Shown piece after piece: positions 1-63,850 of a DNA stretch of 64,000 nucleotides. Made by a program: the position numbers and the translations under genes. Each line of letters begins with the position of its first letter. The first letter of the stretch is position 1. The notes below the pieces were generated by a model, which was not told where the DNA came from, searched no databases, and saw nothing but the letters and a program-made list of their open reading frames with translations. The DNA is from Anolis carolinensis (Eukaryota), in the NCBI RefSeq assembly GCF_035594765.1, contig NC_085842.1:146271036-146335035 (forward strand), in the 5' to 3' direction.

Positions 1-350
1 GGCTTTTGATTGTGTAGATCACAAAAAATGGTGGATCATTCTGAAAGAAATGTGGTGCCATGACATTTAATTCTCTTGAAGAGAAACCTACAAATCAAAT
101 AAAAAGTTATTGTTGGGTTAGAAAATGGAGGGACAATAGTTTTCATTTCGCAAGAAGGTCAAAACAAGTCTGTATTTTATCTGTTTAATTTATAGCAGAA
201 CATATAATGTGGAAAGCAGGAATACAGTCAGAGGAAGGAAATGTGAGAACTGGGAGAGGAAGAATCAACAATTTAAGATAAGCAGATGACAGCATATTAC
301 TTGATAAAAATATCAAAGACTTGGGATGACTAATATTGAAAGTTAAAGAA
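1..350 (+). mobile_element. Degenerate RTE/BovB LINE reverse-transcriptase fragment
   Basis: Translates with stops and frameshifts to AFDCVDH..W.ILKEM, LFNL.AEHIM.KAG, INNLR*ADD and ILKVKE. Confidence 0.8.
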
Positions 351-4651: not shown

Positions 4652-4817
4652 TCAGTTGAAGGAACTATGAAGGAGGTGCCTGACACAAGCAAGCTGCATG
4701 CGCTTTTCACAAATGAACATATAGTCAGAACTGCAAGGCTCCTTGCTCCGTCGGTACATGGATTCTTTGAAGGCAGAGCAGTTTCCTTCACCGTGGTTAT
4801 TTGAGGAAACCCCATTT
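4652..4817 (-). CDS. Gene A exon 6 (CTLD part 3, NGVSSNNHGEGNCSAFKESMYRRSKEPCSSDYMFICEKRMQLACVRHLLHSSFN-stop)
   Basis: C...C..FICEK spacing; T-rich tract with AAG acceptor; phase 2; AATAAA on minus at 4588-4593. Confidence 0.8.
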
Positions 4818-7800
4818 CTTTAGAAAAAAATGGGAAAAATAATTATTTTTTAGAAAAAAATGATTTAAAAAAACACTCAGAAGCACGTAGTATCAGAAAT
4901 CACTGTTGCTAGGAGAATATCACTCAGTCCTTCTTTCCATGAAGAAACAACATTTCTCATTTGCCCCTTCCAGTCTCTGACTCAAATTCACATGACTAAG
5001 TCACACTACACATATGGGACCTAAAGGTCACCACTACACAGTAGCCATATTCTGGGTTTTTGGAGGTGTGTGCATTAATTGTTTCTCTCCTTTGAGAGAG
5101 AGAAAGCAGGATATTAAATACATATAATAAATGAATAAACATGGCTTCCATATGTTATGTTTTAAAATACCAGATAATTTTAATGATTAATTTTAAACTT
5201 CCACTTTATGTCTAATTTTTGTGTGTGCATTTTAATGTGCATTTTTATGGAAATATGTTTTAATATTGATATGTGTATTCTACAAAATATTTTAAATGAT
5301 TGTGTGTTTTGATTGCAATACACCTTTCAAATCCACAATTGTGTGCTTAAATATTAATCCAAAAGAATTCATATCATATTTTATCTGTTATGAAGTTATG
5401 ACATTCTAGTTTATTTTTTATGAATTATAGTAGCAAAAAATCCAACTTTTTTCAAATAAAATATGGGGACACCTATGAATTTGTAACTCTGCCCTTATGC
5501 ATGTACTAAAGGGACAGATTTTGTAGATTTCTTAGTGTCAGATTAATGTCTTAACCTAGGAAATCAATGGTTCCCAACCTGTGGTCCGTGGAGCAGTCCA
5601 AATAACCAACTGAATCTAAAGTTGACAAAAAACTGATTTGTAACCCTTTTGGTACTGATGTTGGAGAGTGGTCCCTGGTCAAGTAGTCCCTGGCCAAAAA
5701 GATGCATGATATAAACTGCATATATAAGTTCATTTGGATGTTTGACTTGGTATTTTATGATCTCTATGTGTATGTGTGTAAATAGTTATGTATATCCCAC
5801 CTTTTTACCTTTTTTTCTTCCTCCCAGGATGGTTACATAACATCAAAACCAGAACAGATAAATAATATATACAAATAGTCATAATAATATACAAAGGTTA
5901 TTTTTAAAGATAATTAAATAATTTTTAGAAACAAAAACATTAAAATACATTAAAAGATATGATATAAAAACAATAGCAACATTTTATTTTTATTTACAAC
6001 ATTTCTACCCCACCGTTTTCACCCTTCCCAAATTCCATTGCAATCCATTCCTAAAAGTAAGTTGGAAAAGAAAGGTTATATCAATATATTGCATTATTTA
6101 CCAACTCAAATCTGTAAAGTAATTTGGTGAACTGCATTGTGACAGATTATATGGAAGTCTGTTCAAAACAGTTACTCACCTGTTAGGAGAAACAGATCCA
6201 TCCATCCCGGGTTTTTTGCCCTCAGTGTCTCTATATCCAATCCAGTATGTGCCTTTTTGAGGGATATTATAAATGAGAAAATCCTAAGAAAAGAAGACAG
6301 GAAAAGAGAATGGCTCCTTGCCTGCTGCTACATGTTCATAGCCTATGAAGCTAAAAAGTTTCAATAACTCACAATGTGAACAGACTTTTTTCAGATGTCG
6401 TGTTGAGGGCATCCCTTGGAGAAAGATGGGGTGGCAAGAAAAGGTTGCCCCAAAAAGTGTGCTGCTGCTGAGTCTGAGAGGGCTTTTAAGCAATTGCTTT
6501 TGGCTGGAATAGGGCCCCTGGATGAAGGACCCAAAATCTGAGAAACTGTCTATTCCTTTCAGTTTGTCCACTACTTCTCATGCATATGTGATTCAGCTGA
6601 ATTGAGTCAAAAACACCATAGAGAAGACAAAGAATTAAGCACAATTGCTAATCCCAATTAAAAGAAGTGTGGTAACTTCACACTTACATAAATATAAGTG
6701 GATTGCTGTAGCTGGCACTAGAAATTAGACTGCGGCCATTGTTTCATTCTAGAACAGGGATGGGAAGTGTGTTCCCTTCCAGATGTTACTGGGCTGCAAA
6801 TCCCTGCAGTCATACCCATCATGCCCAAGGACTAAGAAGTATAGTCTAACAGGGAATTAAATCCAATCTGCAGTAGTTGCCTAGGGGAGACCCAATAAAT
6901 TAACTGCATAAGTCAGCATTTAAGCAAACAACAACAACAACAACAACAACAACTTTATTTCTACCCTGCCACCATCTCCCAAAAGGGACTCGGGACAATA
7001 AATACAGATACATCAATATCAAAAGAAAACATAATTTACATCTAAGCAACTAATGGTATGAGTCTGCTTTAGCAATTGGATTAAGATTTATAACTTCCAG
7101 TCTAGACACAGAAATGTGTGTGTTGCTCTTGGCCAGAAACACATCTGTATGGTTGTTATTTTGGGACCCTTGAAATAATATTTTAATCAGATCATCCTAT
7201 GCAACTGCATTTAGCTGAAATCCTGTATGTTACTCTTTTGCTGAGTTTATGTTGTTCTGAATACTATGGCCCCATCATCACTGCCATTATAATACAGATT
7301 GAACTGCATTATAGAGCCAGCGTAGGTAAGATTAGGTAAAGTTTTTCCCCTGACATTAAGTCCAGTCGTGTCTGACTCTAGGGGTTGGTGCTCATCTCCA
7401 TTTCTAAGCCGAAGAGCCGGTGTTGTCTGTAGACATCTCCAAGGTCATGTGGCGCAGGCTGTTGAGCAACCAGCTGCAACAAATCACTCTGACCAAGAGG
7501 TCATGAGTTCGAGGCCAGCTCGGAGCCCCATGTTTGTCTTGTCTTTGTTCTATGTTAAGGCATTGAATGTTTGCCTTATATGTGTAATGTGATCTGCCCT
7601 GAGTCCCCTTCAGGGTGAGAAGGGCGGAATATAAATACTGTAAATAAATAATAAATAAATGACTGCATGGAGCGCCGTTACCTTCCTGCCGGAGCGGTAC
7701 CTATTGATCTACTCACATTTGTATGTTTTCGAACTGCTAGGTTGGTAGAAGCTGGAACTAACAGCAAGTGCTCACTCCGCTCCCCAGATTCGAACCTGCG

Positions 7801-9749
7801 ACCTTTCGGTCCACAAGTTCAGCAGCTCAGCGCTTTAATACGCTGCACCATCAGGGGCTCATAGTCAGCATAGACTCATATATTCATGTTCAATGCAATT
7901 AAACTGTATTATGTGGATCTACACTGGCTAAATAATGTAATTCAATCTGCAGTGTAGATAAGACCTAAGAGCCATGTAAACTTGTGGCGGGGGGGGGGGG
8001 TATTTCTGGAAACAGAAGAGGAGTTTCTCATGCAAGAGATCCAACACTTCTGTTTGTTGTCTAACATAGCCACATCAGGAGAGAGACAAGGCTGAAACTG
8101 TACCCCAAACTATATTGTATCTAAACCCTTTAATAAATGTATAAAATTATATTTCTTGTGTAACTTGTATTTACTGTATACTGTGTCAATTCCTAAATGT
8201 ATAAAACTGTTTTGAATGTATTATGAAGGCATCTGCTTCTCCCAGTGCCCCTATTTACATAAGCTCCTGAGAATCGAGATGGCTCAATAATTAAGAAGGT
8301 CCCTCCAGCAGTCTTCCAGATCAGATAACATCAGTTCCTTTGTGTGTGTATGTGAGACAGATAATCCCTTTATAGCCAGGATTGTGTTGACACTGTTTAC
8401 CTGTTTAACTATGACTGAAGGCTTATGATCTCACGGAATAAAAGGCTAAAACAAAATATAAATACATTAGTCTTTTGAAAGGGAAACCAAGCCTCTGTCC
8501 ACCCAGGATTATAATCTTTTATTCTCTGGATCTTGTACCTTTGTCTTCACAGACACTTAAATCAATCAAGAAATCATCTGCATACCCACGTCATCATCTC
8601 CTTCAGTTTTACACACTTCACAGGGGTGTCTCTGCAACAGATCGAACCTTTAAACCTACCAATAGTCAACTATTATTCCTCCCACCATGTGAGTATTTGC
8701 GATGTCAGAGAAACCTACGGCCAATCCCTGCATGGATCCTAGCTAGCCTATTTCTCAGCCAATCAGGAGGTGCAGGAAGTCTGAATAGCTATCAGACATG
8801 TATAAAATGTCTTATCTTTTTCTATGGATCTATGCTTGTATATTTTGAGTGTTGGCTGTGACTTGCATCCCTTTTGGCCAAACTGTTATTAAACCTCTGT
8901 AGTTTGCCTTCAACCTGGAATGTTTGTTCTCTGTCCTGGCTGATCTGGTTTAGCAGAAGCTCACCAAGCATGGACCGTCTTATCCACAGTCCTAGTCGAA
9001 ATAGCTTCGTCCCTGTTGAGTTCAACAGCTTTCATTTTTGTGCCCACAAACTATGTTAAATTGGTGGAGACTCTACAAGATATTCTGTCACTGAGAAACT
9101 AGAGCAAAATGTGCTATAGCAGAATGTCCCTCCTTCATAGACAAAGTTTTTGCAGTTTAATAAACCAATTAGGAAATTACATTTATAACCGAAGAACAAA
9201 AATCATAATCCAGGAGAGGAAGTGTTTCTTTTCACAAAGAAAACAGGGGCGGGACAATGGGCAGGAACAACTCTCTACAACGTGATGGCAAATCAATTGA
9301 GAATTCCTGAATAAAACAGATAGTTTGCTAGTGTGTGATGGAGGTAGGAAAACCATCCATTCAATTTCAAAACAAAGTATGCCTAAGCTGTATGGTAATC
9401 TACTCTTCCATACACTTGACATGTTTAGTGGGATGAAGTCTAACATGCTTGTGGGACATGAATGCCAAGGTAAACCCCCCTGGGACTTACCATGGACTTT
9501 ACCCATCTCCCATTCATACATACACTGAATGCTAGCTCATAAAGGGACACTTCCATTTGAGAAACCCTAAGTTTTGACATTTTACTAAATGTAAAAAATG
9601 GCAGCACCATGCTTCCCAAACCTAGTTAACTACCCACCAATCTGCCCCATCCTCCAATCACCACCATCCCAATTCCACTCCGATTCCCTACTCTGAATGC
9701 TAGGCACATGTGTAAAGAAAAAGTTTTTTTTTCCCTTTTCATAAAAGTG

Positions 9750-9786
<37 letters not shown>

Positions 9787-11180
9787 CCCCAACCAAACTG
9801 GGATTGGGGTAAGGACAAATTATTTTGCAGGTGTTTATTCATCCTACGTCTGGTGGAAAATTCACAAATAACATTTGTAGGACAAAGGAGTCCTTTATTC
9901 TGCACGAACAACATAAAACACAAACCTTTTCAAAGTAATGCTCTCAAATGAAAGGAAAGAAGGACCTAAAACTTCAAATTTCCACAAAACTAATGACACA
10001 ACTTGCAAAAATACTGCTGCTCTATTTGTTGCCAGGAGGAAGAATAGCAGAAATAGCAAATACAGTCGAGTCTCACTTATCCAACATAAACGGACTGGCA
10101 GAACATTGGATAAGCGAATATGTTGGATAATAAGGAGAGATTAAGGAGAAGCCTATTAAACATCAAATTAGGTTATGATTTTACAAATTAAGCACCAAAA
10201 CATCATGTTATACAACAAATTTGACAGAAAAAGTAGTTCAATATGTCGTAATGCTACGTAGTAATTATTGTATTTACGAATTTAGCACCAAAATATCACA
10301 ATGTGTTGAAAACACTGACTACAAAAATGCGTTGGATAATCCAGAACGTTAGATAAGTGAATGTTGGATAAGTGAAACTCTACTGTAATAGAAATATGTT
10401 TTCCTTGACAATATCTGCTAGCAAACTCTTGAAGGAGAATCTAATCTACTTCTCTGAAAAGCATGGAATAACCTTTAATAAATGTATTTATTAAATGGAT
10501 TTTAGTAGCTGACATACTCAAGAGAACATAGTTGTCCTCTGGTATTTGTTCCATTTACTACAGGAGACACACAGAGAAAGCTCACCTGTTCCTCCTCACT
10601 GCCAATCACTACTAAGTCTGCACCCAGGTCATGGCAGGTGCCCCTGGCATTTGTCCAAGTGTCTTGGTTTTGGTCATAATAGTAGCATTTCTCCTGAAAC
10701 ATGATCCATTCATGGGGGCATGATGGAAAACCTGCAAAACATCAAGCCTTGAAATAATCCAGCCTAGAACAAATGATATATCTTAAATGCTGCAACTTTT
10801 ACAGAAACTTTGGTCAGATACTACCACAGATGTCTGCTCAGAAAATGAACATACATGATCTTCTGGCATATCCACATGGCACTGTGAAACGAACTTTTCA
10901 AAATAAAAATCTCAGAGGCTGTGCTGGTTGGTGGATTCTGAGAACTGCAGTGCAAAAACATCTACAGGTCATCACTGAGGGCCAGGTTTCTCTTTCCCCA
11001 AGGATCTTACATCTCATATGGTCCTGCTAAAATACTCTAAAGCAGGGGTCCCCAAACTAAGGCCCGGGGGCCGGATGCGGCCCATTGAAGCCATTTATTC
11101 GGCCCCCACAGCACAAGGGTAGAAGGGGGTTGGGCTAAATGACCCAAGGGGTCTCTTCCAACCCTCTTTATTATTATTAT

Positions 11181-11238
<58 letters not shown>

Positions 11239-12693
11239 ATTGAGGCTGGGTGGCCATCTTTCAGGGGTGCTTTGCTTGTGCCTTTTGGTGCAGAAAGGCA
11301 GAAGAGGGTTGGACTAAAAGGCCCAAGGGGTCTCTTCCAACCCTCTTTTTCATTATTATTATTATTATTATTAATTATTGCTTGGTAGCCAACTATAGTC
11401 CGGCCCTCCAACAGTCTGAAGGATCGTGAACTGGCCCCCTGTTTAAAAAGTTTGGGGACCCCTGCTCTAAAGTTACCAGAGCCTGTCTGATCTTAGAAGC
11501 TAAGCAGGTTTAGCCCTGGCTAGTATTTGGATGGCAGATGGCCAATGACTGCCAGCTGCTGTAGGCTATGTTTTAGAGGAAGGAATGAGCAAAACCACCA
11601 CTGACTATTCCTTGCCTTAAAAAATGAAATAATTCATGGGGTCACTATAAGTCAACTTGAAGGCACATGCACACACATCCCATATAGCAGAAAGCCAGCA
11701 TGGTGTAGTGGTTTGAGAGCCCTTCCGAGCAGCTGCTTAATCCAAAGTAAAGGATTAAAAATCCTGGTACCTTAAGAAGAGTCCTCACGTGGAGTCATTA
11801 GTCCTGGGAAATGGTCTCATAGCATCCAGAAAGGTTTGGTTAAAGCATATTGAAGGGATCCACAAAAGGTGCAGAACATTCTCTGGAAGTTTTCTTTTAA
11901 TTATTTTCTCAGTGACCCTCTGAGATGCGCTGTACCTCATAAGCATTTTGCCAATTCTTATGAGTGCTAATGCACTGATGCAGATATAATAATAATCTCT
12001 CCTCACCCTCCTGGTGTCTTTAGGTTTGCCCTCTTGAACCCTGTTTCCCTTTGGAGTCACTTCCCTACAATTGTCCGACCTGCTCCTGCAGAATTCTGGA
12101 AAATGTAGTTTAGAGAAGCCGGGGACTCTCTAGCTGATAATTCCAAAGGCTCTGCCCTGAACTACATGTCACAGAATTCTGTAGGAGCAACTCGAACGAT
12201 TGGCAGATGATAGCCTCCATTCTATAACGTTGGTGGGGAAAAGTTCATGGTTCCATGCTACAAAACGCAACTTACATCTGTTAAAGGCTAATATGAGGGC
12301 AGCAATTGCCATGATCAGAGAGAGGAAGGCCAGTCCATAAGCGAAGTTAATGGGAGATCTGCACTGTTCTTTCAATTTGTCAATACCATAGGCAAACAGA
12401 TCTGTAAATAAAGAAAAGTACATAGACAAAGTTGTAGCAAGAGGAGAAGTATTTCAGTTGTTTCAGAAATGCTATACCCAGGGCTGGCCTCCTGTGTGAA
12501 CATGAACAACTTAGGTACTGGCCCTGGACTCTGAGCTGAAAGAGTTGTGGGGGAGAGATAATTACAGAGATGTGATGTTTCTTGTATAGGAATTCTGGGA
12601 CTTGTAGTCCAAAAGATCTAATTTCCCATGCTCTGGCTACAAAATATTGAACCTACTATAATGACAGTTTAAGACTACAATGGCTGCATTTCC

Positions 12694-12748
<55 letters not shown>

Positions 12749-15700
12749 CTTTATTTATATCCCGCCACCATCTCCCAGAGGGACTCGGGGCAGCTCACAA
12801 AACACTCAAGGTGTGATACAAAATACTAAATACAACAAGTTCAGAACAAAACATAGGCAATAAACAGTCAACACAACATCATAAATTCACAGTATGCCCT
12901 GGTAAAAACAATAAAATACAGCAATTGCTGTAGATAAAAGAGCAGCATTCGATCCTAGAATTGTAAAGTGCTAAAAAAAGAGTCAACAGTCCTCATATGT
13001 ATTATAAGACAGTCTAAACATGATCAAAGACTTGTCGGAAAAGCCGGGTCTTTAATGGTGTGCGAAAGGTTTGGAGGGTGGGGCTATCCTGATCTCCCTC
13101 GGGAGGGTATTCCAGAGCCAGGGGCCACAACTGAGAAGGCCCTCTCCCTCGTCCCCACCAACCGCACTTGAGATGGAGGTGTTCGTCCAACCAGGTCTCA
13201 GTGATGCAAGCCAGATTCGCACATTCATCCAGGGTTAAATCCTGGGTGGCAGCTGCTTTACCATTTATGGACCTTGCGTTTAACAGCAGGACTTTAAGCT
13301 CTGTGGGCCTGTCAAGAACAATTACAACCCATATTTTCTGGCCCCAGTCACCTAGAATCATTATCCCAGGATTTCTCTTGTGTTATACCTCCAACCAGTT
13401 CTATACACATGATGGGAACCTATATGTTTCTATCCCACAAACCAGTATTCTTTGCTAGGAACCAAGAATTGAACTCCTCCCCATCACACCTCCCTTCTCT
13501 GACACTGGCTTCTCACTGGCCTCTCACCTTGTTCTATTCTGAGCCCATTCTTGGGTAGCTTCCTCATCAGCATGTCAGGATCAGGGATGTATTCATATTC
13601 CTCCTGAGTCTCTTCACCGCTGACAGACAATGTTCCTAAAGACAGAAGAGGCTTTGCTCAGGTACTTTGGAATCTGCTGAATCCTTTTGGTTGGGTGATC
13701 TTACTATGCAATTCTATCCCTCTAATTCTTATAGAACATTGCTTTCTCAATTATAATGGCTACTCAAATAAAAACATGCCCAAATTTTGGCTATGTACTG
13801 ACACACAAGGATTCTCTCTTCCCCAGTGATGGAAGGTGGCTTCCAAGTCAGTGAGGGTTTTTTTTCCGTGTCAAGAGCGACTTGAGAAACTGCAAGTTGC
13901 TTCTGGTGTGAGAGAATTGGCCATCTGTAACAACATTGCTCAGGGGACACCCGGGACTAAAAGGATATTTCCAAATAGATTCAGCACCTTGAAGCACTTG
14001 TTATAGGCATTAAAATTGGTGTATTGTTCAACTGACAAGGAAGCTGCTGGCCAGCTCTTCTCTCTTTCTGCCTCTTCACGTGTGTATTTGATGAGTATCG
14101 TTTCATGTAGCTACTTGCAAGATAAATTCCATACCACAAATAGCTTTGATATCGTGAAATCGGACCCCCCAAATGATGAATTGTATAAAATTATATAAAA
14201 TGGTAATCGTGGCTCTGCAAAACCCTTTTGTGTAAACTGTTGCTGGAATGTTCTCCGGTTGCACTCAAGACCCTTGCCCTTCATTTCCAAAATCATTTTT
14301 ACAATGAACTGAGAGATTGGGGAGGGGGTGGAATTAGTCAATGGATGTATATCAGAGGGCCCTGGTTCCCTTTCCTGCTCCCATTGATGAGATCGGGGCT
14401 ATCTCTGGCTGCCATGCCTTAAGCCAGTTCTATCTATTGAAATGGTCATTATGTCTAAATATCCATTATGTACACTGGACTAACTCTATTGTGCCAACCA
14501 GAGCTAACCCATTAAACTCATAAATGACTCTTTTGCATATTGTCATATCACCTACCATTCGATCACATCCCTTTCAGAGGCAGACCATCCAATGGACTGA
14601 CACCTCAAATGATCAGTTTATTGAATTTCCCGCCACTACAAAGTGCCAACCAGCAAAGACCTCTGATGTAATCTTGAGCCACACAAAACATGGATCCTAG
14701 CTGGAAAGATTTCAACCAATTAGGAGCTGGCACAGGTTTCTTGAAAAGTGGTTAAATGTAATAAAAATACCCTGTATTGACAGTTGCAGCATGTCAGTCA
14801 ATTGCAGTATGTCAGTACCTCTGATGTCCCATCTGTCCAGTGAGAATGCACTCTTTTTTGCCTTCTAACCCATCTTTGTTTAATTTGGACTGGAATAGTT
14901 GGACATGCCAGGCTTCAAAACCTGTAATAGCAGAAATCACTTAACATCTTCTCAAAGGCTGACAGAGTTAGGAATCTGGTAGGAAGCATATGTAGCATCT
15001 AATTTAAAATATAGTAGGACATTCCTATTTTTGTGTGGGGAAAAGTGACAGCCCTGGCCAGTGGACCTAATCCAACACGCCATGTGTGCATCCACACAGA
15101 GATTTCTATTGTTATCTGTTGTCAGTTACCATACCTAACAAACTATTCAAATAGTGGATGTCTCACAGTAAAATGAGATGTGATTTCTGACCTTTCAAGG
15201 TTTTGCACTCCTGCTTTTCAGTTATTGCTCCAGAAGAAACTGGTCAGCTTTAGATCTGGCCTCACTTGCTTCAATTTGGCCTGCTTCATATTTTTAGCTC
15301 TGCACACAACATCCTTTCCAAGTTAGAACTGAACCTGAGAAAGGTCTGTCCCTCCAGGTCAAGAGGCTGCTATGTTGGGTAACTGGCCTGCATAACTGGG
15401 TAAACGAATGCACTCTTCTCAGAAAAATTTGGAGAAGCCACTTAAAATATAAGGCTGGGCTTATAAATAGGGAAGACTGAAGCCTTCCATTACTCTACTT
15501 TACTAGTAAGTTACCACTTGAATCTGCCAGATATCCTATGAGAAAGATTTCCAAAGTCATTTGAGTAAAGAATATGCTTTGAGAAGCACACCCTGTGAAC
15601 ATGTCAGCACGAGCAACAGCACTGATAAAATGTGATTTCATCTTGTGACACCAACAGCATAATCTGGGGTGGAAAGACATAGGACTGCAATTAGGAAAAT

Positions 15701-15917
15701 GAAGCTAATACCAAGTACAATGCCTACACTGTCCAAGACATTGAATTTCGGTAGAGCTAAAGCAACTCTTTGGAAAATCCCCTTTCTTTCCCTCTCCGTG
15801 ACCCTCTATTTTATGTTTACCTGTTTTTCTGAGTTCTGAGCAAGCCTCTGAGGTGTGGGACAATTCTTCCAAATTTTTTCCCCTGTGATAGTCTTCATTC
15901 TGGTAGTCATCACCCAT
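4652..15917 (-). CDS. Gene A: type II transmembrane C-type lectin-like receptor lacking sugar-binding motifs (CLEC17A/CD209-family-derived), 6 coding exons, 248 aa
   Basis: Exons 15917-15821, 13635-13528, 12401-12276 (TM), 10731-10586, 6283-6180 and 4817-4652. All introns are GT-AG with phases 1,1,1,0,2, the classic lectin pattern. The 747-nt join is open. CTLD motifs: CPHEW..FQEKCYYY..W..A...C, YWIGY, C..DYMFICEK. Confidence 0.85.
6180..6283 (-). CDS. Gene A exon 5 (CTLD part 2, DFLIYNIPQKGTYWIGYRDTEGKKPGMDGSVSPN)
   Basis: WIG and DGS motifs; strong acceptor and CAG|GTGAGT donor; phase 0-2. Confidence 0.88.
7324..7860 (-). mobile_element. Sauria SINE interrupted by a nested SINE
   Basis: tRNA head at 7860, central aacctagcagttcgaaa domain, BovB-like tail ending in (acctt)-type repeats. 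Confidence 0.9.
7448..7660 (+). mobile_element. Anolis SINE2-like copy nested inside the Sauria SINE
   Basis: Closely similar to 351-578. Confidence 0.88.
8093..9034 (+). mobile_element. Putative solo ERV-type LTR
   Basis: Starts TGAAA, ends TTTCA; CCAAT (8759), TATAAAA (8801) and ATTAAA (8888) occur in LTR order. No TSD found. Confidence 0.45.
9751..9783. repeat. (TG)n microsatellite
   Basis: Read directly. Confidence 0.95.
10063..10385. mobile_element. Tc1/mariner (Tigger-type) MITE
   Basis: TIR CAGT(C/A)GAGT(C/T)TCACTTATCCAACAT with TA TSD. Confidence 0.9.
10586..10731 (-). CDS. Gene A exon 4 (CTLD part 1, CFPSCPHEWIMFQEKCYYY...GSEEEQ)
   Basis: Canonical CTLD N-terminal motifs; CAG|GTGAGC donor; phase 1-0. 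Confidence 0.92.
11043..11464. mobile_element. hAT non-autonomous element (OposCharlie1/Charlie-type TIR)
   Basis: TIR CAGGGGTCCCCAAACT / AGTTTGGGGACCCCTG; perfect 8-bp TSD CTCTAAAG. Confidence 0.93.
11473..11666 (+). mobile_element. Degenerate 5S rRNA-derived SINE with RTE-type tail
   Basis: gtctgatcttagaagctaagcagg..ctggctagtatttggatgg..gctgtaggc resembles 5S boxes A/C. A second degenerate copy lies on minus at about 51750-51895. Confidence 0.7.
12276..12401 (-). CDS. Gene A exon 3 (transmembrane, ...PINFAYGLAFLSLIMAIAALILAFNR)
   Basis: ttctttatttacAG acceptor, GTAAGT donor, 126 nt, hydrophobic helix. Confidence 0.85.
12693..13340 (-). mobile_element. Internally deleted L2 LINE (endonuclease start fused to the 3' end)
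   Basis: LLLNARSINGK...ACITETWLDE (APE motifs) joins near 13181 to the L2 ORF2 end, 3' UTR and (tta)n tail. Confidence 0.75.
13528..13635 (-). CDS. Gene A exon 2 (cytoplasmic, GTLSVSGEETQEEYEYIPDPDMLMRKLPKNGLRIEQ)
   Basis: ctcttctgtctttAG acceptor, AAG|GTGAGA donor, 108 nt, phase 1-1, open. Confidence 0.75.
14155..14917 (+). mobile_element. Putative solo LTR related to 8093-9034
   Basis: Starts TGAAATCGGACCCCCCAAA; shares CATGGATCCTAGCT...CCAATYAGGAG with the first copy. No TSD found. Confidence 0.4.
15821..15917 (-). CDS. Gene A exon 1 (cytoplasmic, MGDDYQNEDYHRGKNLEELSHTSEACSELRKT)
   Basis: ATG at 15917; donor CAG|GTAAAC; phase 1 fits exon 2. Confidence 0.7.
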
Positions 15918-17165: not shown

Positions 17166-18435
17166 CAAGAATACTGTGGTGGCTATATTTAATCAATCTG
17201 TGTATCTGTCCCCTTCAGCTGTTCACTTTCTGTGTGAATGCTCTTTTTATTTCAAAATAACAGCAATCTAGATAATAAATTTTTCATTTGCTTAGGCATC
17301 TTAAACTATTCAGTTTGTTATTTTGCCCTGACTTTTGTTTGTAGTGTTTATTATTCTATTTTATTGTTTTTATTGCATATCCATTGTTCGCTATCCTTGT
17401 ATTTTCTGATAAAGCCTGCTATTTAAAATGAAAAATGGAATGAATAAGTAGACTCCACATAAAGAAAGCTTTAAAAATACATTTAATGACATACATACCA
17501 TAGTATAACATGTGTTATGGATGAAAAGTATATTAAATATTTTTTTAATGCTTGAAAATTGGAAGTCAGGTATTTTGTTCCTGTCATTTTACTTTTTAGA
17601 TCTTTATTTGTATGGATGGTCTAGTTTACTTTAGTTTAGTTAGTGCAGTTGTTATATATATATATACAGTTTTTGTTCACAATTACTCATCAAAAACATC
17701 ACTGGTGGATATGTAGGGACGTCCACAGATCTGTGCCATCCAGCCTGGAGACCATGTTGATCAATATAGCGTTATCTTGCCTTTGGTAGTAAGAAAGTAC
17801 TTGAGATCATTTGCATCTTCTTTGACTTCACCCCTCTAGGTCACCCAGGAAAAACAAAGAGGGGGATTTGTGTCCCTCTGGGAGCGTTGTGCAACTCACT
17901 GTATGCAGAGGGTGGGAGCATAATGCTGTCGGCCTTCAGGCAATGTTCTGGGCCTTTTTGAATACCTGGACCTTTTTGGTTGCCGTGGCCAGGAACAGCT
18001 GGCTACCCTAAAGTGGCACTGGTCATTTCCTCTCTCTGTGGAGTGGGTCATCTCAATATGCAACATTTTGGCTCAAGACCCATCCTCAACATAAATGGGA
18101 TTGACTAATACACAAGCGTACACAGTTGATTGTGAACCAGCTTAATCTCACTGGAAAATCAGGAAAAAGAGATTCTGGGACTTAAACTGACTTCTTTGAA
18201 TTTACCTCCAGCTCAAGGAATGGAGGAATATCAAATAGAAAAGAGCTGTAATCAAATCGTATCTTTCTTCTGAGACACTGATGCTCCATTGCTCCAGTTT
18301 AATCACAGATTTCAAAGTTATGGTTAAAATGTTTCATCCAGATGAAGGCCCATGTTTGCATTACTGACAGTCTATGACAACAAAGTCCCAAGCTGAGTCA
18401 AGCTGGCTCCAGTTGTGTTCTTGCTGGCCACAGAA

Positions 18436-18574
18436 TTAGCATTTCCAGGCCTTTTCACAAATCCAGCCATCAGCATTGCTTCCACACTCACGATCATCCC
18501 ACCTGCCCGAAGTGGTCATCACGACACAATCCTGCCCATGGCCATAGTTGTTGGGCTGCCGTGGATTCCAATAG
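18436..18574 (-). CDS. Gene B exon 9 (CTLD part 3, YWNPRQPNNYGHGQDCVVMTTSGRWDDRECGSNADGWICEKAWKC-stop)
   Basis: Terminal CTLD motifs; TAA at 18438-18436. Confidence 0.93.
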
Positions 18575-21500
18575 CTGCAGATGGAAATTCAGGAAATGAA
18601 TGCACGGTAGTCAATGAAGCATAGTAGGATAGGTTTTGTTTGCACAGTTGACTATAGGAGTACAGAAATGTGACCTCTATGTTGTATGTAGCCCTCAAGG
18701 CCATTTCTGAGGTTGTAAAACTACCTGTCACTTGCTCCCCAGATATTTTTGATGAACAACACTAAAAATGACCTCATAACTCTGAAGGGGCTTGGGAAGC
18801 AAATTATCAAATTCAAGAGAGAAGTCCTTCAAATTAGGAACTGAACCAGAAGAAATGGACATGTCCAGTTTTGATTTTTTTTTTAAGGTAACAAATTCAC
18901 CCTAGAAATGTCCACCAAGATGATGGGAGATACCATGTAAAACAGTGGTTCTCAACCTGTGTTTTGACCTAATCTATGTGTGTTTCAAAATCAGTGAATA
19001 AATCAATGATTCCCTTCGGGTGAGAAGGGTGGGATATAAATGTTGTAAATAAATAAATAAATAAATAAATTAGCAATGGGGACTTTAAAAAGTGGAATAT
19101 TTAAGATGTTACAAAAATGAATGCAAACCATTTTTAAAATAAAGAATTCCAAATGAGTATAACTCTAAATGGAATTTATGTCATAGTGATATGAAAATAA
19201 GCAAGACTCCCTCATGTGCATGATTAGACTAATATTCATGTACCTCCTGATAAAAATGAGGAGAGATCTTTTTGTCAGAAGAGGGCAAATTTTTCTCTTT
19301 TTTTCTTGAAGCACATTGCATTTAAAATGTGAAAATGAAAAACATATACATGGGTGCACCTCTTGCACCTCAATTTTACACTGCAGCTAAGATCTCTCAA
19401 GAGGTTGAAGTACATTTAGAGTACAGCTCTATCATATTAAGAGAACCAGAGAGAGAGGGGGGGGGGGGAGAGAATAAATGAGGAGCATTTATCAGCCTGC
19501 CAGATCACTAACCTCTATCATTTCATCTGAGCTTCAGAAAAATAGAAGCTACAAAACATAAATGGTTAATCTTGCTGCACTTTAACCTGGGATAAATCTA
19601 CAGACCAGCTGAAAGTGATATATTGTTTATTTTATCTCTTAGTTATATCTTCTTTTTGAAACCTAAGTATTCTTCATAATTCTTCAACAATATGGGTTCT
19701 CTGCCTGAGGGTTTTGTTTTCAATTTGAAAGGGTTTTTACTTTTAAAAGGATAGAAGAACAGACTGCATGTAACTAGACTTACGTATATGATGCTGGACT
19801 GCGGTCCACCCATACAAATGTATTCTCTGTATTTATATCACTGAGACCAATCCACAAGACATTATTTTTTGAGTGAGATGTGAGAAAGCGCTGAAACAGA
19901 AACCATATTTAATTATTTGAGCTGGACAGATAACTAAATAACCTTTTATGACTAGCACCGTGTCATCTTAGACTCAGTGCCAGGCACACAATTGCATACT
20001 CACAAGTTCTATTCATCCAGGTAAGAGGCATGTTTACAATCCCTGGCAGCTCTCACTGAAAGTATTCAAATGTCAGTTATAAGGACTTGGTGAACCTAAG
20101 ACATGACTTTGAATAGAACAGTTCTAGTCCATGTGATAGACAAAATTGTGGGGGATGAATTCATCAAAAGTTATTAGATAAACATACACTATCTATGTTC
20201 AGAAGCAAGATACATTTTTCAAAATGTATTTATTTAGAGTATTTATACCCTGTTCTTTAGCCAAAAAGGCTTGTAGGACAGTTTACAAATCATTAAATTT
20301 GTCAAATTCAAAATGTAAATGAGACACAACACACAAGGAAAATAGGGTGGCAGTGCAGGAAGGGATTAAGACCAGCAATTGCTGATTGCTTTTCTTTCAA
20401 ATCAGGGCAGTTCAAGGCAGCCCTTTAACCTGGGAGCAACAGGGTTTGTTAAATGTGAATGCCCCCGAGTCACAGTCCACCCCCACTTCTCCTACATGCC
20501 AGGAGAGCTCTAGCAGCAGTCTAATGGCAGCCAGGTCAATTATTTTATTTTTTAAAAAGATTTTAAAAGGGGTTTTGGGAGGAGCTGGGGGCTATCTCAG
20601 ATTTGTTGGGCTCAAGCAGCCCCAGAAACCCAAGACAGATATGTAGATGAGCACTGGAAGTTACATGGCACAATCCTCGGTCCCATCTACACAGCGCCTG
20701 CAGCTGCAAAGTCCTAAGTCTACTGAAAGATCGACGTATTTCCAGCAGACAAATTAATTCAGCACAAAGCAGGGTTTTTCTGATTTGTGTCGAAAACATT
20801 TGTTTTTCCCTGAAGCATCATTTGGACGCCCCAAGGGAAAATGCAGGAGGGTGTGCATTATATGTGATGTCCGGATGCGCCCTCAGAAAGTAAAGCAATG
20901 GCAATTGCAACATGGAAGGAAAGCTTCTTGTCAATGGAGCAGTGCCTGGTTACTCTTGTCCTCCTCAGAGGCCACAGCAGCAGCAGCAGGTGGAGCTCAG
21001 TTTATGAACTAAGGCCGGATCTACACTGCCCTATATCCCAGGATCTCATCTCATATTGTCTGTTTATTCCAGATTATCTGATAGTATAGACTCATAAAAT
21101 GCAGTTCAATGCAGTTACACTGCATTATGAAATTGTATTATATGGACAGTGTAGATGGGGCCTGCGTTGTAGCTGGCATTGTCCTTTTATGACCATCAGT
21201 GACCCAATGTGAGTTTGAAGAGTTTAATCAACAACTGGTTGTTTCTTCAAATACAAGAAAAGATGGCTGAAAAAGATGGTTGACATTACCAACAATATTC
21301 ACCACTTACCTGATAGTTTTGTACACAACCACCTCAACAAAAAATCAGTATTCTTCAAATGCTGGATGTAGTTCTGAGTACCCAAGAATTATAATGTTTT
21401 GCCATGCAAGTGGCACCTTATGGGAAGATATTGTGGACTTGATAAATAGCAGATCATCACGAGGGAGTCATGCCTTACCTGCTCTTCATAATCATCAATG

Positions 21501-24500
21501 ATAACCAAAGAGCTCTCTTGCTCCTCACATAATGTTTTGGCAAGAGACCAGTGGTTCTGCTTTTCTTGGAAATGGTAGCAGTGTCCTCTGTTAAGCAGCC
21601 AGCCCTCTGGACAAACTCGGCAGGCTGAGTCTACAAAGGAATTGCAGCGATGTTAAAGTCACAGACAAATTCCAGAGCAATTCATTAGCAGGAATGCAGA
21701 TCAAATGAGAAATGATTCCGTCCATAACCTACCTTTGTGTTTGCATTTCTAATATCTGTAACAAGCCCTGACTTGATTCACTGAAAAGGCAGCTAAATCC
21801 AAGATTTCATATATGTTACAGTACTTTTTAAAAGCATATGTACTGTTTATCTCATTGGCACTGACTGGCCTCTTTGCATGGTCAGAGCTTCTGATTTTAA
21901 GTTTTTAGTTACTCAAGAAGCTGAAAACATCTCTTAGAGGCAAACACTCAGAATGATTTTACTTTAACTGTTGCCGAGAGTATTCCACCAGCCTCATAGT
22001 GCAATGCTCAAACCACAACACCCTGCTGGCTCACTACACCACACTGGTGAATTTGTACCCACCCCATTAATTTGGATAGTGACCAGTCAGAGAAAGCTCT
22101 ATACAGGCGGTCCCCAGGTTAATAACAAGATAGGGTCTGAGGGTTTATTCTTAAGTTCTCTGTAAGTTGGAACTATTTTTAAAGTGTAACCCCAGCTAAT
22201 TTTATTTTAGTTTTGTATGACACAGGGAAGGGTTAACACCCTTATATTGTTTGTTTTGCTGCCTGTGTCCCGTTCAGAAGATTTCACCTCACTTTCTGTC
22301 CCTGTAACAATTGGATTTTGAAAATGTTGGGTTCTCGTGGAAACAAAGATTGGTGATAAAGCTTTACTGGAGAAACTTTTCCACATAATAACTCTTTCAG
22401 GAGTGAATTTCTCTTCCTATGAGATGATTTCCTCTCTGTTCCTGTTGTCTCACTGCCCATTTGTAACTAGGAGTTTGTAAGTCGGATATTTGTAATTCAA
22501 GGACTGCCTGTATTGACATATATTAGTGTGACACAAAATCGTGAGGAAAAAATATTTCATGAACTACATTATGCTTCCAATGTGCATTTTGGTGACATGC
22601 ATATAGCAAAATTATAGATGACCACCTGAAAGAATTCATATTACTAGACTTGAAAATCAGCTGTCTGGTTCTGACTCACAAGGTCAGGTTTCCCATAACT
22701 GCTTTTTAGTCACCTCCTATTGAGTTTCTAAAGTGCAGTTCTAAATATCATAGGCATGAGAACTCTGTAATGGCATGCTATGGGTTAAAGAACAAAGGAA
22801 AAGTAGGATTGCTGCCAATAAAATCTCACATCTTACCATTCATCTTATGTAGCGCTTCCAGCAGCTTAAAAGTATCTTCCTGGATCCTTTCTTCTGCAGC
22901 ATCTAAATTAGCCAGATGTTTGCTCACTAGTAATAAAACATTAAGGGAAATAGTTTAATGGAATATGAACTTGACCTTATACAGAGTTGAATCAGTAATG
23001 ACCTTGTGACCCGCTACAAACAGCTCTATCTCCAGGGATAACCAATCCTGCAACTGCCTACCAAAAATATTTTTAAATTTCAAAACAACGTACCCTCCTT
23101 TCCCCTTGTTTCTTGCTGACTCTCCAGCTTCTTCAGCTCTTCAGTTAGCCTTGATCCTGGAAGAAAATTACAGATCACAGCAAAGATATGGGTGAATCCA
23201 CTATACTTTCCTGATCAAGAAGTGGCCCAAAGGCCACTATTGGATTAGCATCCTTGCAGTGAAGAAGCACTAAGAAATTACAAAGATTTTCTAATAATCC
23301 TAGATGCTGACCTACAAACTATCCATACTGCAGAATTATAGTAGTTTGACAGCACATTACCTGCCATGGCTCCATCCTCTGGAATCCTGGAATTGTATTT
23401 TGTTTGGGAGTGTTCTTTGATAAAGAAAGGTAAAAATGTCACAAAACTACAAATCCCAGAATTTTATATCATTGAACCATGGCAGTCAACGTGGTGTCAA
23501 ACTGCTACACAAGGCTAAAATCAGCTGCATTCGCCGGTTCATTCCAGGTCACCCACGGAGCCTGACAGCATGGCTCCATGGGCTCCTGTGTTGCCACGGG
23601 AATCCATGGGGGAAAGCATGCTCCACATGCGCTCCACATGTCCTCCATCTGACTGCCCTCAGCTGGAACTGGGCAATGTGAGGCACAAGATTCCCCATGC
23701 CCCTCCACAAAGCAGAACACCTCCGGTGGCCATATGACAAGGTCATATTTCTTAGTAATATCAAGAGTAGGCCCACAATCATGTTTACTGACCCTCCCAT
23801 TGATGTTAATGAGTCTCCCCTAGTTATCCAACTCATTGTTATTACTTGCAATCATAAAAAGCAGAAAATAATGGAAATAAATAGGCAAGCAGCTTCAGGC
23901 TTCCCAAAGCAACAGCACTGATACTTTCATCCCAAGTTCAAAACTGCCAGCAGTCTACTCTTTACTGAATGCAGAGCACTGGTCTCACATCCACTCTCTC
24001 CCAAAATACAATTTCATTTTCCACTCTACAAAAGCATGCTGAGATAATACAGTACAGATAATACATGGGGGATACGTTCTTAAACCTACAATAGAAGCAG
24101 AAAAGCGAGGATAATAGCAAACCCTATTGCAATGTATGTCTTCTGCTAGAATGTATCATAGAATCTCACTGCAGGACCGAAAAAATTGCTAGAGAGGTAT
24201 CCTCTCTCAGAATTTGCTAGTGTGACTCTATGGTAACTTCTGGCAGAAGCACAGCATAGAATGGTGTGTAGGACCTAGGCAATTCCTATAAAGGACGTAT
24301 TTTGTCAGATGTGGATAGGTCTTATGGATATCGGAGTCGTATTATAGTCACTCTCTCTGAGTAAATGTTTTTTTCACTTGTTTATTCATTGCTGACTTGT
24401 TTATAAATAGTCTTTCCCCAAAACCAATACTCAGTGCCTCGTTACTGTGCTAATTCTAGGAACATATGTCCTCCCTTTAATCAGGTTCCCTTTTCCACAA

Positions 24501-45186: not shown

Positions 45187-45289
45187 ATGTATGATGACAC
45201 AGAAGCACCAAGTGGAGAAGAGGGTCTCCCACAATGGAGTTGCCGCCCCCTCCCTGCTGAGCCCACAGAGAAGACAGAACATGTGGAAG
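45187..45289 (+). CDS. Gene C putative exon 1 (MYDDTEAPSGEEGLPQWSCRPLPAEPTEKTEHVE)
   Basis: ATG, open frame, AAG|GTAATT phase-1 donor matching exon 2; GC-box and TATA-like element just upstream. Confidence 0.65.
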
Positions 45290-53400: not shown

Positions 53401-56400
53401 ATATAATGGCAAAATCATGGTTTGCTTTTTGGAATTTTAAAAATAATATTTTCAGGCAATGGATTGTTGACTTTGAGGATACAGAATTCATGGATATGAA
53501 GAGCAAACTGAATTGGGGCTTCTCTGTTTCAATTCAGTTTGTGTTGTAATGATAGCTCTCAGCATTTCTGGTAATGAAAATGTTCTCAAAGGAGTAATAG
53601 GATCAAGAGGGTGGTAACATCTGTCCCTTTCCTTTCCAGATGCTGCCATGTTTTCAGAGCTCAGGAAGCTGAATTTCACCCCCACAACTGACATCTGTGA
53701 ACCTTCAACAGCCCCTCTATATATTGAAGAATTAAAGAGCACATTAATAGCAGAGTTCAGAACTTTGGAAAATCATGTTGATGAGAAGTATAAAGCAAGT
53801 GATAGAAAAATGGAAAAGGAAATATCCAGGCTGGAAGAAAAACTGAGTGCAATGGAAAACAGACAAGGTTAAGTATGAGAAAGAACAAGCTGCCCATAGA
53901 CAGAAATGAAAGCAACATTTTTAAGAGCGCAATTTAAAAAAAACAAACAAATCATTTCCCCTTTCAAGTTATTTAGATTTTGTAAAAAAAAGTCAACTTT
54001 TGGGGAAGATAGTGTTTTTAGATTAGATTAAAGCAAACAAGAAAGTGTATTATTCCCCAGAACCAACATATTTGTGTGTACATGTGTTTTTGAATTTTTA
54101 AATGTGAATTTCATGGAATTTCAAAGTGTTGTCCCTAAATGCATTTTAGTAGAAAACTTCAAATAGTCTGTAGAAAGTTAAAAATATTTTCTCCTGCTTA
54201 TTCAAGGCATAACCTAACTTGCTTCTCCCCCCCCCCCCATTTCACATGCGCATATCATTCATTTTGAATTAAAAGTTTGCTGAAATATTGGAACTGGTCT
54301 TCTTTTGGGGGAAATTAGACCTATTCTTTCCATACTGTTTCTGCCTATAGTATTATGTCTTGGCATACCTTAACTGAGGCATACCTGGATAATAACAGAG
54401 TGCGTGGAACATATAAATGCCATTTTCAGGGGGGGAAATGTTTCTGCTATTGTGGGGAACCCGTTCTTTGACCAAGTAAAAGAATGCAAGATATAACATC
54501 GGAACCATACAAAGTGGTGACCCCTGAACCATTGGCAGCTGCTCCCTGAAGTTTCCAGGGAAGAAAGAAACAACTGTACCCAGTCAGACCAAACAGTGCT
54601 CGTCCCCATCATCAGACAGCCTTTTTCATGTCAGGAGCAACTTGAGAAACTGCAAGTCGCTTCTGGTGAGAGAATTGGTTGTCTGCAAGGACATCGTCCA
54701 GATGTTTTGCTGTTTTTATCATCCTTGTGGGAGGTTTCTCTCATGTACCCGCATGGAGCTGGAGCTGATAGAGGGAACTCATCCGTGCTCTCCCCAGGTT
54801 CAGGTCAGCAACACAACCTTCAAATCAGCAGTCCTGTTGGCACAAGGGTTTAACCCACTGCGCCACCAGGAAGCACTGATAAAGATGACTGAGACTCCCT
54901 ATGTTACTTTATCCTCTTTCAGTTGTTTGCCCCACGCCAGAACCTCTGCAATGGGAAGAATTTGGAGACAGTTGCTACTATTTCTCAGATACTACAGAAC
55001 AGTGGGAAAATGCCAAAAAAATATGTGCAGCAGTTAACTCCCATCTGATCATTATTAACAGCAATACAGAGCAGGTAAATGGTGTCTCATGTAGTCATCT
55101 TTTGTTTCTAGTTCTATAAGTTTTTGAAAGAATTCCCGCTCCCTATTCCACCACTTGCCTGCCTACCTGTGCACAGACACCCAAGAAAAGACACCCAAGT
55201 ATTACACTTAATTTGTTCATACCTTAGTTCCATTCGGCTGAAATCATATCCAGCCTTGGAATGCATTCCCACTTTCTGAGTAGACATGCATGGGTTGACA
55301 TTGTAGTTATGTTACATTTATATTTATTTTATTCATTACAATATTTTCACCTCTCTTCTGCCTGCCTGCCTGCCTATCTATCTATCTGTGTCTGTCTGTC
55401 TGTCTGTCTATCTATCTAATTATCATCTATTTATCAAATAGAAAATGAGATACAATTCTGTTAAAATTTTAAGGCTGGGACCCTGCTAGCAATTGCGCTT
55501 TTTCCAAAGCTGCACAGCACTGAAGTGGAAAGTACACAATGGCATCCTTAAAAAACACACAGTTATGGTTCTATGATTCCACTTGAAATGTCTTGGCAAC
55601 GTCCTATGCAATCCCTACATATTGGCATTTCTACTACAGTACTTAGATAATCCTATTACCAAAACCAACAGTTAATATTTTATCCCTATATTCTTACCTT
55701 CTTTTACTTCTAAAGGAAACGGGAGGAAGTGTATCTGCCAGGTTTGCATGCTAGCCACCATCTTTACCCTCCTGTCTATATTTCATCCTCTACTTTCAAC
55801 CAGGTAGCCTGCTAGGAACAGGATAGATTGATCTTGCTTGAGATCACAATTGATTGGCATCAGACAGCTTTTGCAGCTAAGCCTGGACTGCACATGAAAT
55901 CGGTCAGAGGGTGCATCTATATTGTAGAATTAATGAAGTTTGACACTGCTTTAACTATCTTGGCTCAATGCTACAGAACTCTGGGATGTGTAGTTTGGCA
56001 AGTCACAAGCACTTTATAGCAGGGAAAGGTAAAAAACTTGAAAAACTCCCATGCTCCCACAGCACTGAGCGATGGCAGCTAAAGTGATGTCAAACTGCAT
56101 TAATTTTACAGTATAGATGCACCCACATCATATATAGCCTACAGCTATAAAAAGCAATTCATACAGTAAGATGCTAGATTAGGGGGGCTTCTGTTTTCAC
56201 ATGCTTAGCATCTCAGAATGCACAATGTTGTTGTTTTCCTCCTAGAATTTTGTGGTTCAAAAAATAAAGCAAACATCAGTCTGGCTTGGTCTACATGATA
56301 CAGAGGTAGAAGGAACTTGGCGCTGGGTAGATGGATCACTACTTGAACGAAATGGGTATGTGAACCATTCCTTTGTTTTCATCCTAGGGTCCTTTATGAA

Positions 56401-58388: not shown

Positions 58389-58465
58389 GAAACTAAGCAG
58401 TATGTTTCTCTATATTTGATGTCTGTTCCATGTAGTTCCTTTCTCTAGGTTTAGTTTGATATATT

Positions 58466-63464: not shown

Positions 63465-63850
63465 AGGTGGTCCCTCGTTCCAAGAGGCTCCTTCCGCTTC
63501 CGGGATGGAGGGAAGTGGAGGGGAGGCGCCAAGGGCGGAAGTGGGTCTCGGTGCTCAAGGGCCGGGGCCGAGCGGGAAGAAGCGGCGGCGGCGGCGGCGA
63601 TGGGGGCCCACTTGGCCCGGCGCTACCTGTGGGATGCGGAGGTGGAGCCCGACCCGCTCCGGATGCCCACCTTCGAGCCCACCTTCGGCTTCCCCGAGCG
63701 CAAGGAACGCGGTGAGGAGGAAGCGGAGGAGGGGAAGGTCACTCAGCCCTTGGGCCGCGCCTCCGCGCCAGGCCTCCTTCGGCTCCGGTGCCGAGCTGCC
63801 ACTTCGGGCCTCCCTCCTCGAAATCCCAGGCTGGCGAAAGCCGTCTTCGG
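63465..63850 (+). promoter_or_regulatory. CpG-island promoter of NDUFB7 with tandem ETS/GABP(NRF-2)-type sites and a GC box
   Basis: CpG-rich; CTTCCGCTTCCGG at 63491-63503 and GGGCGGAAGTG at 63533-63543. GABP sites are typical of nuclear-encoded respiratory-chain genes. Confidence 0.75.
63600..63711 (+). CDS. NDUFB7: NADH:ubiquinone oxidoreductase subunit B7, first coding exon (gene continues beyond the window)
   Basis: [37 protein letters not shown] matches the recognisable NDUFB7 N-terminus (Gly2 myristoylation). 112-nt exon ending at a G|GTGAGG donor inside a CpG island. Confidence 0.95.

What the first reader, a model, noticed from the sequence alone, without database searches (positions are those of the whole stretch)
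4652..15917. Gene A: neckless, Ca2+-site-less lectin-like receptor with Grb2-type and hemITAM-like tyrosines
Seen: all core CTLD cysteines are kept and the frame is open. However, the EPN loop reads GVSSNNHGEG, the WND position reads RSKE and the usual WxW reads KPG. The CTLD starts two residues after the TM helix, and I found no phase-compatible neck exon in 10732-12275. The tail has DDYQN (YxN) and ETQEEYEYI (acidic plus YxxI). Established: pYxN binds the Grb2 SH2 domain, as in CLEC17A; acidic-YxxL hemITAMs recruit Syk in Dectin-1, CLEC-2 and CLEC9A. Inference: a group II lectin has converged on a group V-like, non-sugar-binding activating receptor. The extra N- and C-terminal Cys pair shared with gene B suggests local origin.
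Basis: partly seen in the sequence, partly recalled or inferred. Interest (0 to 1): 0.7.

Follow-up and report, generated by a model that had tools for sequence, protein, structure and literature searches.

The report
Anole lectin with fast-remodelled binding face
This intact green-anole gene belongs to a lizard-and-turtle family of stalk-less lectin-like membrane receptors that mostly lack the sugar-binding site; in anoles the outer face has also lost four normally fixed tryptophans and appears to change faster than neutral DNA, so it is likely an immune signalling receptor, predicted to recruit Grb2, whose face likely tracks or evades a non-sugar ligand.

Summary
In detail: six exons, open 248-aa frame, no neck, no EPN/WND/WxW, tail DDYQN and YEYI. 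The window is Anolis carolinensis, next to NDUFB7; RefSeq has the same splice.

The neckless build and tyrosine tail are not a local convergence: they are shared by a family found in geckos, lacertids, anguimorphs, iguanians and turtles. None of 23 members has a full EPN+WND site; 2 keep EPN. The YEYI motif fails the published hemITAM definition. The extra cysteine pair also occurs in marsupial CD23, so it does not show origin from gene B.

What is peculiar is anole-specific. Both anole orthologues lost all four upper-lobe tryptophans, three of which are kept in 21 of 21 other members; only 2 of 898 other lectin domains lack all four. The upper lobe is 21/53 identical between the anoles, against 159/195 elsewhere (p=1e-8), and below neutral expectation at published genome-wide rates. 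AlphaFold keeps the core but not that loop (pLDDT 43, gecko control 84-93).

Best reading (0.5): a functional adaptor-recruiting receptor whose ligand face is under diversifying selection. No dN/dS, no spliced reads and no function were obtained.

The parts
15821..15917 (-). Exon 1, cytoplasmic tail residues 1-32; an in-frame ATG at 15935 could add 6 residues as in the A. sagrei model
15897..15911 (-). DDYQN: YxN motif (Y5), predicted Grb2-SH2 site
   Evidence: at least one YxN in 25 of 26 family rows
13528..13635 (-). Exon 2, cytoplasmic tail residues 33-68
13586..13597 (-). YEYI (Y46-I49): conserved YxxI motif, not a consensus hemITAM
   Evidence: YxxI/L/V in 24 of 26 rows, triacidic in 0 of 26
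12276..12401 (-). Exon 3, juxtamembrane and TM helix (about residues 88-108, no charged residue inside)
   Evidence: helix in model
10586..10731 (-). Exon 4, CTLD part 1 (C111 split over the intron, C115, C126, C143); joined directly to the TM exon
   Evidence: RefSeq P0004, P0007
6180..6283 (-). Exon 5, CTLD part 2: WIGY kept; WxW lost (K/P/G; G185 codon GGG at 6208-6206); upper lobe starts at 6232
4652..4817 (-). Exon 6, CTLD part 3 and stop: post-intron Trp is G196 (GGG), EPN falls in an alignment gap, WND reads RSK (R217 CGG), C207, C222, C230 and extra C238 kept
36..87 (-). Alternative terminal exon used by older RefSeq models; truncates the CTLD after exon 5
18434..21630 (-). Context: CTLD exons of gene B, CD23-like (QPN/WDD, with neck exons further upstream)
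54923..58389 (+). Context: CTLD exons of gene C (EPN and WND intact, neck exon near 53640)
63600..63710 (+). Context: NDUFB7 exon 1
   Evidence: E 3.5e-17; CLEC17A is listed next to NDUFB7 in horse and pig gene lists

Best explanation
Gene A encodes an intact, neckless type II lectin-like membrane protein without a Ca2+/sugar site, which is likely a working immune receptor that would signal by tyrosine phosphorylation of its own tail (pYQN predicted to bind Grb2, pYEYI an unidentified SH2 protein) and whose outer face likely evolves under diversifying selection against a non-sugar, probably pathogen-linked, ligand. Shown: gene structure, family membership, motif conservation, loss of the four upper-lobe tryptophans in both anoles, and strongly uneven divergence. 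Inferred: expression as spliced mRNA, phosphorylation, partners, ligand and positive selection. Likely history: a CD23/DC-SIGN/CLEC17A-type lectin lost its neck before the lizard-turtle split; most copies lost EPN/WND but kept the fold's tryptophans; the anole copy, whose nearest relatives still carry EPN, then lost the EPN segment and the loop's hydrophobic anchors.
For: Open frame and 8 of 8 CTLD Cys kept in two anoles about 39 My apart (date PMC9679377 passage). Chance of no stop codon in both lineages under neutral substitution alone is 0.007-0.036, and both indels between the anoles are whole codons. Family found in lizards and turtles; TM-to-CTLD distance 4-12 residues in 25 of 26 rows, YxN in 25 of 26, YxxI/L/V in 24 of 26. 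EPN in 2 of 23 near-complete domains, WND in 0 of 23. Upper lobe 21/53 identical against 159/195 elsewhere, Fisher p=1.2e-8; 0 of 20000 shuffles reach so low a window. Published 4D rate 1.8e-9 per year (bioRxiv 2022.05.06.490966, section 14) gives d of about 0.14-0.19; simulated neutral identity is then 32-36 of 49 aligned sites, observed 21 (0 of 600 runs), while the rest is more conserved than neutral (P 0.04 or less at d 0.14 and above). No compensated frameshift explains the divergence. AlphaFold core pLDDT 86-97, CTLD fold Z 16.4 (rmsd 2.0, 104 aligned, LLT1). No charged TM residue for an ITAM adaptor chain.
Against: No A. sagrei DNA was available, so there is no locus dS or dN/dS. If local d is 0.3-0.4 the upper lobe is simply neutral (P 0.08-0.45); with the lowest window chosen freely the excess is already weak at d 0.23 (P 0.06-0.10); at d 0.12 the rest of the protein is not distinguishable from neutral (P 0.10-0.19). 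The long loop is unconfident in the model (pLDDT 43-44, residues 129-148 of P0004) against 84-93 in most blocks of the gecko control, which fits a collapsed surface as well as a new one. The two anoles share no new motif there. RefSeq models show exon-6 replacement (A. carolinensis) and TM-exon skipping (A. sagrei), and the current A. carolinensis model starts in exon 2, omitting both tyrosine motifs. The link to the EPN-bearing Varanus and gecko copies is 86/88 in one tree and unresolved in the second. The Varanus model lacks its last cysteines and may itself be broken or mis-predicted. Family rows are database predictions and are not independent.
Confidence: 0.5

Rival explanations
1. The upper lobe is functionally dead and drifting; the protein is kept for its tail, TM helix and lower lobe, as a signalling or partner subunit of a neighbouring lectin (in the manner of MCL with Mincle) or as a ligand-independent adaptor.
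For: All four hydrophobic anchors lost, loop shortened and polar, loop pLDDT 43. TM exon 36/42 and tail 56/68 identical between anoles. Paralogues with intact tryptophans exist in the same species (P0166, P0169).
Against: Upper-lobe divergence exceeds neutral expectation at published genome-wide rates. C207 and C222 inside the region are kept in both species.
Confidence: 0.27
2. A paralogue in slow decay (unitary or duplicate pseudogene in the making) with little remaining constraint.
For: The rest of the protein is only modestly more conserved than neutral at d 0.12-0.14. Truncating and TM-less RefSeq isoforms exist. Three lost Trp codons are one base from TGG.
Against: Frame open in two species, whole-codon indels only, 8 of 8 Cys kept; no single neutral rate fits both regions.
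Confidence: 0.11
3. One reading: a true hemITAM receptor that activates Syk through YEYI like CLEC-2 or Dectin-1.
For: YxxI with acidic residues nearby, conserved across lizards. NKp65 and NKp80 show that divergent hemITAM-like motifs can signal (PMC3819593 passages).
Against: Triacidic -2 to -4 context absent in 26 of 26 rows; Ile not Leu; Tyr at 46, not near 7; turtles have YENV there, a YxN-type motif.
Confidence: 0.12

Closest known systems
CLEC17A / prolectin
   Same: Type II CTLD receptor with a long tyrosine-bearing tail, YxN and Grb2 co-purification (PMC2709368, passages and section 13); lies next to NDUFB7 in horse and pig gene lists, as this cluster does.
   Different: Prolectin has a neck, a Ca2+-dependent mannose/fucose site and eight potential SH3 motifs; gene A has none of these (turtle members have 0-2 PxxP). 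Orthology was not testable: no CLEC17A sequence was obtained.
CD23/FCER2, DC-SIGN/CD209 (group II)
   Same: Among the best single-domain sequence matches and the top Foldseek matches; extra N- and C-terminal Cys as in possum CD23; gene B in the window is CD23-like.
   Different: No neck, no EPN/WND, no upper-lobe tryptophans; signalling-type tail.
Group V hemITAM receptors (CLEC-2, Dectin-1, CLEC9A, NKp80) and LLT1
   Same: No Ca2+ site; tyrosine motif in the receptor's own tail; LLT1 and NKp80 head the VIA-align list, within about 1 Z of dectin-2, CD72 and ASGPR.
   Different: Tail about 87 aa with YxN plus YxxI instead of a short tail with triacidic YxxL; sits in a CD23/NDUFB7 neighbourhood. 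No group V sequence was in my trees, so descent from group V is not formally excluded.
Compact CTLDs (Link modules)
   Same: Core kept while the long loop is reduced.
   Different: The loop is still present (about 30 residues), only shortened and stripped of tryptophans; compact CTLDs lack it (PMC9630629 passage).

Membership tests
C-type lectin-like domain | Pfam Lectin_C above the curated cut-off; core disulfide cysteines; double-loop fold | tested here: met
   55.6 bits against cut-off 22.6; Cys kept; Z 16.4, rmsd 2.0, 104 aligned
Group II C-type lectin | Type II membrane topology with one C-terminal CTLD | tested here: met
Group II C-type lectin | Ca2+ site 2 (EPN/QPD, Glu, WND) | tested here: not met
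Group II C-type lectin | Neck between TM and CTLD | tested here: not met
Group V (NK-type) receptor | No Ca2+/carbohydrate site | tested here: met
Group V (NK-type) receptor | Short N-terminal tail | tested here: not met
   tail about 87 aa; definition from PMC9630629 passage
Group V (NK-type) receptor | Descent from, and location in, the NK gene complex | tested here: inconclusive
   neighbours are CD23-like and NDUFB7; no group V rows in the trees
hemITAM receptor | Acidic residues at -2, -3, -4 of the Tyr | tested here: not met
   T-Q-E-E-Y: 1 of 3; 0 of 26 family rows
hemITAM receptor | YxxL, Tyr near position 7 | tested here: not met
   YxxI at residue 46; Y5 has Glu at +3
hemITAM receptor | Syk-dependent signalling | not testable with these tools
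   needs cell assays
CLEC17A orthologue | YxN motif in tail; locus beside NDUFB7 | tested here: met
   (two other lectin genes lie between gene A and NDUFB7)
CLEC17A orthologue | Neck, sugar-binding site, multiple SH3 motifs | tested here: not met
CLEC17A orthologue | Phylogenetic grouping with CLEC17A | not testable with these tools
   no CLEC17A sequence was returned under that name by the searches
Lizard-turtle neckless YxN-tail CTLD family (unnamed) | Tail YxN plus YxxI/V, TM joined to CTLD, C-terminal extra Cys; full-length similarity | tested here: met
   split from CD23, gene B and fish rows 97/88 and 85/74
Compact CTLD | Long loop absent | tested here: not met
   loop present, low confidence

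The most novel reading that the evidence does not exclude
Anoles carry a signalling lectin caught midway between a canonical and a compact CTLD: positive selection has dismantled the tryptophan core of the long loop, leaving a flexible, fast-changing surface that recognises or escapes a pathogen protein, on a Grb2-recruiting receptor family that reptiles built from the CD23/DC-SIGN/CLEC17A locus independently of the NK-complex receptors.
Probability: 0.22. Interest if true: 0.68.

Novelty: new variant of a known kind. Interest (0 to 1): 0.42.

Why it matters
Reptile innate receptors are mostly named by best hit (this family is labelled CD209-like, CLEC2B-like, nattectin-like, snaclec or lectoxin-like in RefSeq), which hides a coherent receptor family at least as old as the lizard-turtle split. 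It offers a natural series from EPN-bearing (monitor, gecko) through Ca2+-site-less to tryptophan-less (anoles) domains on one scaffold, and A. sagrei is an established laboratory lizard. If the fast change is adaptive, it marks a host-pathogen interface. If it is drift, the gene shows how a lectin can become a pure signalling subunit.

Tried and rejected
RNA evidence: the run search listed no holder on record as RNA. Eight of the 24 listed runs were laid. In X4, X5, X6, X8 the listed contigs run unbroken across exon 5 or exon 6 borders, repeats swamped the joint table, and 129 joints were not shown. In X9-X12 no joint was listed. Splicing is therefore neither confirmed nor refuted here; exons 3-4 were not covered by any listed piece.

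Homodimer prediction gave no answer (score 0.04) and is not used.

No whole genome is held for this window, so paralogues and flanks outside the window could not be read, and no orthologue DNA was obtained for dN/dS.

ESM Atlas: the tail gave only leads under 0.9 (KLRF1-like and a 'CL17A fragment' cluster at 0.78); the turtle protein gave generic CTLD clusters. Neither is used for orthology.

A compensated frameshift as the cause of loop divergence was rejected. Origin from gene B was rejected as unsupported.

No snake, crocodilian, bird or mammal member was among the named hits; these searches are word-limited and most hits were not named, so this is not evidence of absence.

Literature: searches (listings only) showed no paper on this family; the library lacks most subscription journals. 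PMC10920033 (passages) gave no usable branch lengths.
Full report
Observation. Six minus-strand exons between 15917 and 4652 have canonical splice sites and give an open 248-aa frame: tail of about 87 residues, one uncharged TM helix, then a CTLD whose first cysteine (C111) follows the helix by two residues. No neck exon passed my scan of intron 3 (0 candidates). Searching with exon 4 returned Anolis proteins, and RefSeq XP_062825449.1 of A. carolinensis equals residues 54-248 of my model. The window ends in NDUFB7 exon 1, the gene listed next to CLEC17A in horse and pig (one passage each of PMC12291906 and PMC12189728). Gene B groups with marsupial CD23 (95/86 and 97/94); gene C has intact EPN and WND.

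The family. The A. sagrei orthologue (P0007) found full-length relatives in Varanus, Elgaria and Zootoca, then in gecko, Hemicordylus, Podarcis, Lacerta, Sceloporus, two further A. carolinensis paralogues and sea turtles. A profile search added cryptodire and pleurodire turtles. Of 26 rows examined, 25 have the CTLD within 12 residues of the TM (the exception is a Mauremys model with an insert), 25 have at least one tail YxN, 24 a YxxI/L/V, and none a triacidic YxxL context. Of 23 rows with a near-complete domain (truncated Zootoca, Lacerta and Sceloporus models left out), 2 have EPN (Varanus, one gecko copy) and none WND. Necklessness, the tyrosine tail and the missing sugar site are thus family traits, not a peculiarity of gene A. 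The family separates from CD23, gene B and fish rows with 97/88 in one tree and 85/74 in a second that adds gene C (the first tree lacked gene C and Salminus, the second dropped eight redundant or long-branch rows). Neither tree held CLEC17A or group V sequences. Possum CD23 has the same extra N- and C-terminal cysteines, so they do not tie gene A to gene B.

What is special in anoles. The two tryptophans of WxW and the one of WND are present in 21 of 21 other rows, the one after the last intron in 18 of 21; both anoles lack all four. Among 902 four-cysteine CTLDs extracted from the 191 proteins held, 6 lack all four: four are these two anole genes, two are unrelated domains (the set is biased toward relatives of the query and mostly multi-domain proteins). 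Three of the replaced codons are one base from TGG. Against Varanus, EPN falls in a three-residue gap. AlphaFold, with the same 36-sequence alignment, models the core at pLDDT 86-97 but the long loop at 43-44, whereas the gecko control scores 84-93 there with one block at 70. The fold is a CTLD, nearest CD23 by Foldseek and nearly tied among LLT1, NKp80, dectin-2, CD72 and ASGPR by VIA-align. The role of these tryptophans in the upper-lobe core and the variability of the long loop are described in PMC7618208 (passages).

Selection. Between the anoles, identity is 28/32, 28/36, 36/42, 39/49, 22/35 and 27/54 by exon; residues 177-229 are 21/53 identical against 159/195 elsewhere (p=1.2e-8). With a 4D rate of 1.8e-9 per year (range 1.13-2.20; bioRxiv 2022.05.06.490966, passages and section 14) and a split of 39 to 52 My (PMC9679377 and PMC9596491 passages), neutral d is about 0.12-0.23. 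Simulated neutral change leaves 30-38 of the 49 aligned upper-lobe sites identical; 21 are (P 0.005 or less). The rest is more conserved than neutral for d of 0.14 and above, but not at 0.12. If the lowest window is chosen freely the excess weakens at d 0.23 (P 0.06-0.10) and vanishes at 0.3. A neutral copy would escape stop codons in both lineages with probability 0.007-0.036, before counting frameshifts. This is a protein-level proxy with genome-wide rates, not a dN/dS.

Mechanism. YxN is the Grb2-SH2 target and Grb2 co-purifies with prolectin (PMC2709368, passages and section 13); the motif's retention across the family makes Grb2 recruitment the likeliest output (inference). YEYI is equally conserved in lizards but fails the hemITAM definition (PMC3576117 and PMC3819593 passages) and has Glu, not a hydrophobic residue, at -2, so it is not an ITIM either (consensus recalled); its partner is open. 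With no neck the domain sits on the membrane, probably braced by a C111-C238 bond: the model pairs strands at both ends, but the bond itself is inferred. I commit to a functional adaptor-recruiting receptor with a diversifying non-sugar ligand face (0.5), against a dead face on a signalling subunit (0.27), a true Syk hemITAM receptor (0.12) and decay (0.11).

Against and unresolved. My read checks showed only unspliced contigs, so expression rests on RefSeq models. The current A. carolinensis model starts in exon 2, after both tyrosine motifs; exon 1 is supported by its 28/32 identity to the A. sagrei model and by the family. Older models use a truncating exon at 87-36, and A. sagrei has a TM-skipping isoform. 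The Varanus model ends without its last cysteines.

Novelty. Four literature searches (listings only) found no description of the family. An earlier, unreviewed note of this scan (e1-9997766) describes two neckless GRB2-tail paralogues just upstream of the window and reaches a similar view of the family; it is not independent support, and it means the family was already seen in this scan. New here are the turtle members, the NDUFB7 link, the failed hemITAM test and the anole-specific loss of the upper-lobe core. Verdict: new variant of a known kind, interest 0.42.

Noticed in passing
window 18434-38680 (-): Gene B is CD23/FCER2-like by tree (95/86, 97/94) with QPN/WDD in place of EPN/WND, three short neck exons (about 29870, 23155, 22925) and a TM exon near 32916-33040.
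   Followed up: partly
window 45188-58389 (+): Gene C: two tail exons (one with an RPLPAEP proline motif), TM exon near 51945, a 76-aa neck exon and an intact EPN/WND domain, 5 kb upstream of NDUFB7; a candidate CLEC17A orthologue, not tested.
   Followed up: partly
window 63600-63710 (+): NDUFB7 lies beside a CD23-like gene here, whereas the human prolectin gene is about 7 Mb from the DC-SIGN cluster (PMC2709368): the two mammalian lectin loci may be one locus in lizards.
   Followed up: partly
window 36-87 (-): Alternative terminal exon of older RefSeq models, spliced from exon 5, removing four CTLD cysteines.
   Followed up: yes
window 4701: One contig (run X5, depth 3) carries a variant that would change R233 to His; may be an error. 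RefSeq P0001 also differs from the window at one exon-4 residue, possibly an allele or a duplicate model.
   Followed up: no
P0007 (A. sagrei), TM helix: A lysine sits in the outer half of the TM helix where A. carolinensis has Ile; present in both A. sagrei annotations (P0002, P0007).
   Followed up: no
window about 2250-3860 (-): Decayed ORF fragments that look like a Tigger/pogo-type DNA transposase (recalled resemblance, not searched), directly downstream of exon 6.
   Followed up: no
P0008 (Varanus komodoensis): Keeps EPN, EEDC and WHD but the model ends without the last two core cysteines: frameshift, assembly error or mis-prediction.
   Followed up: no
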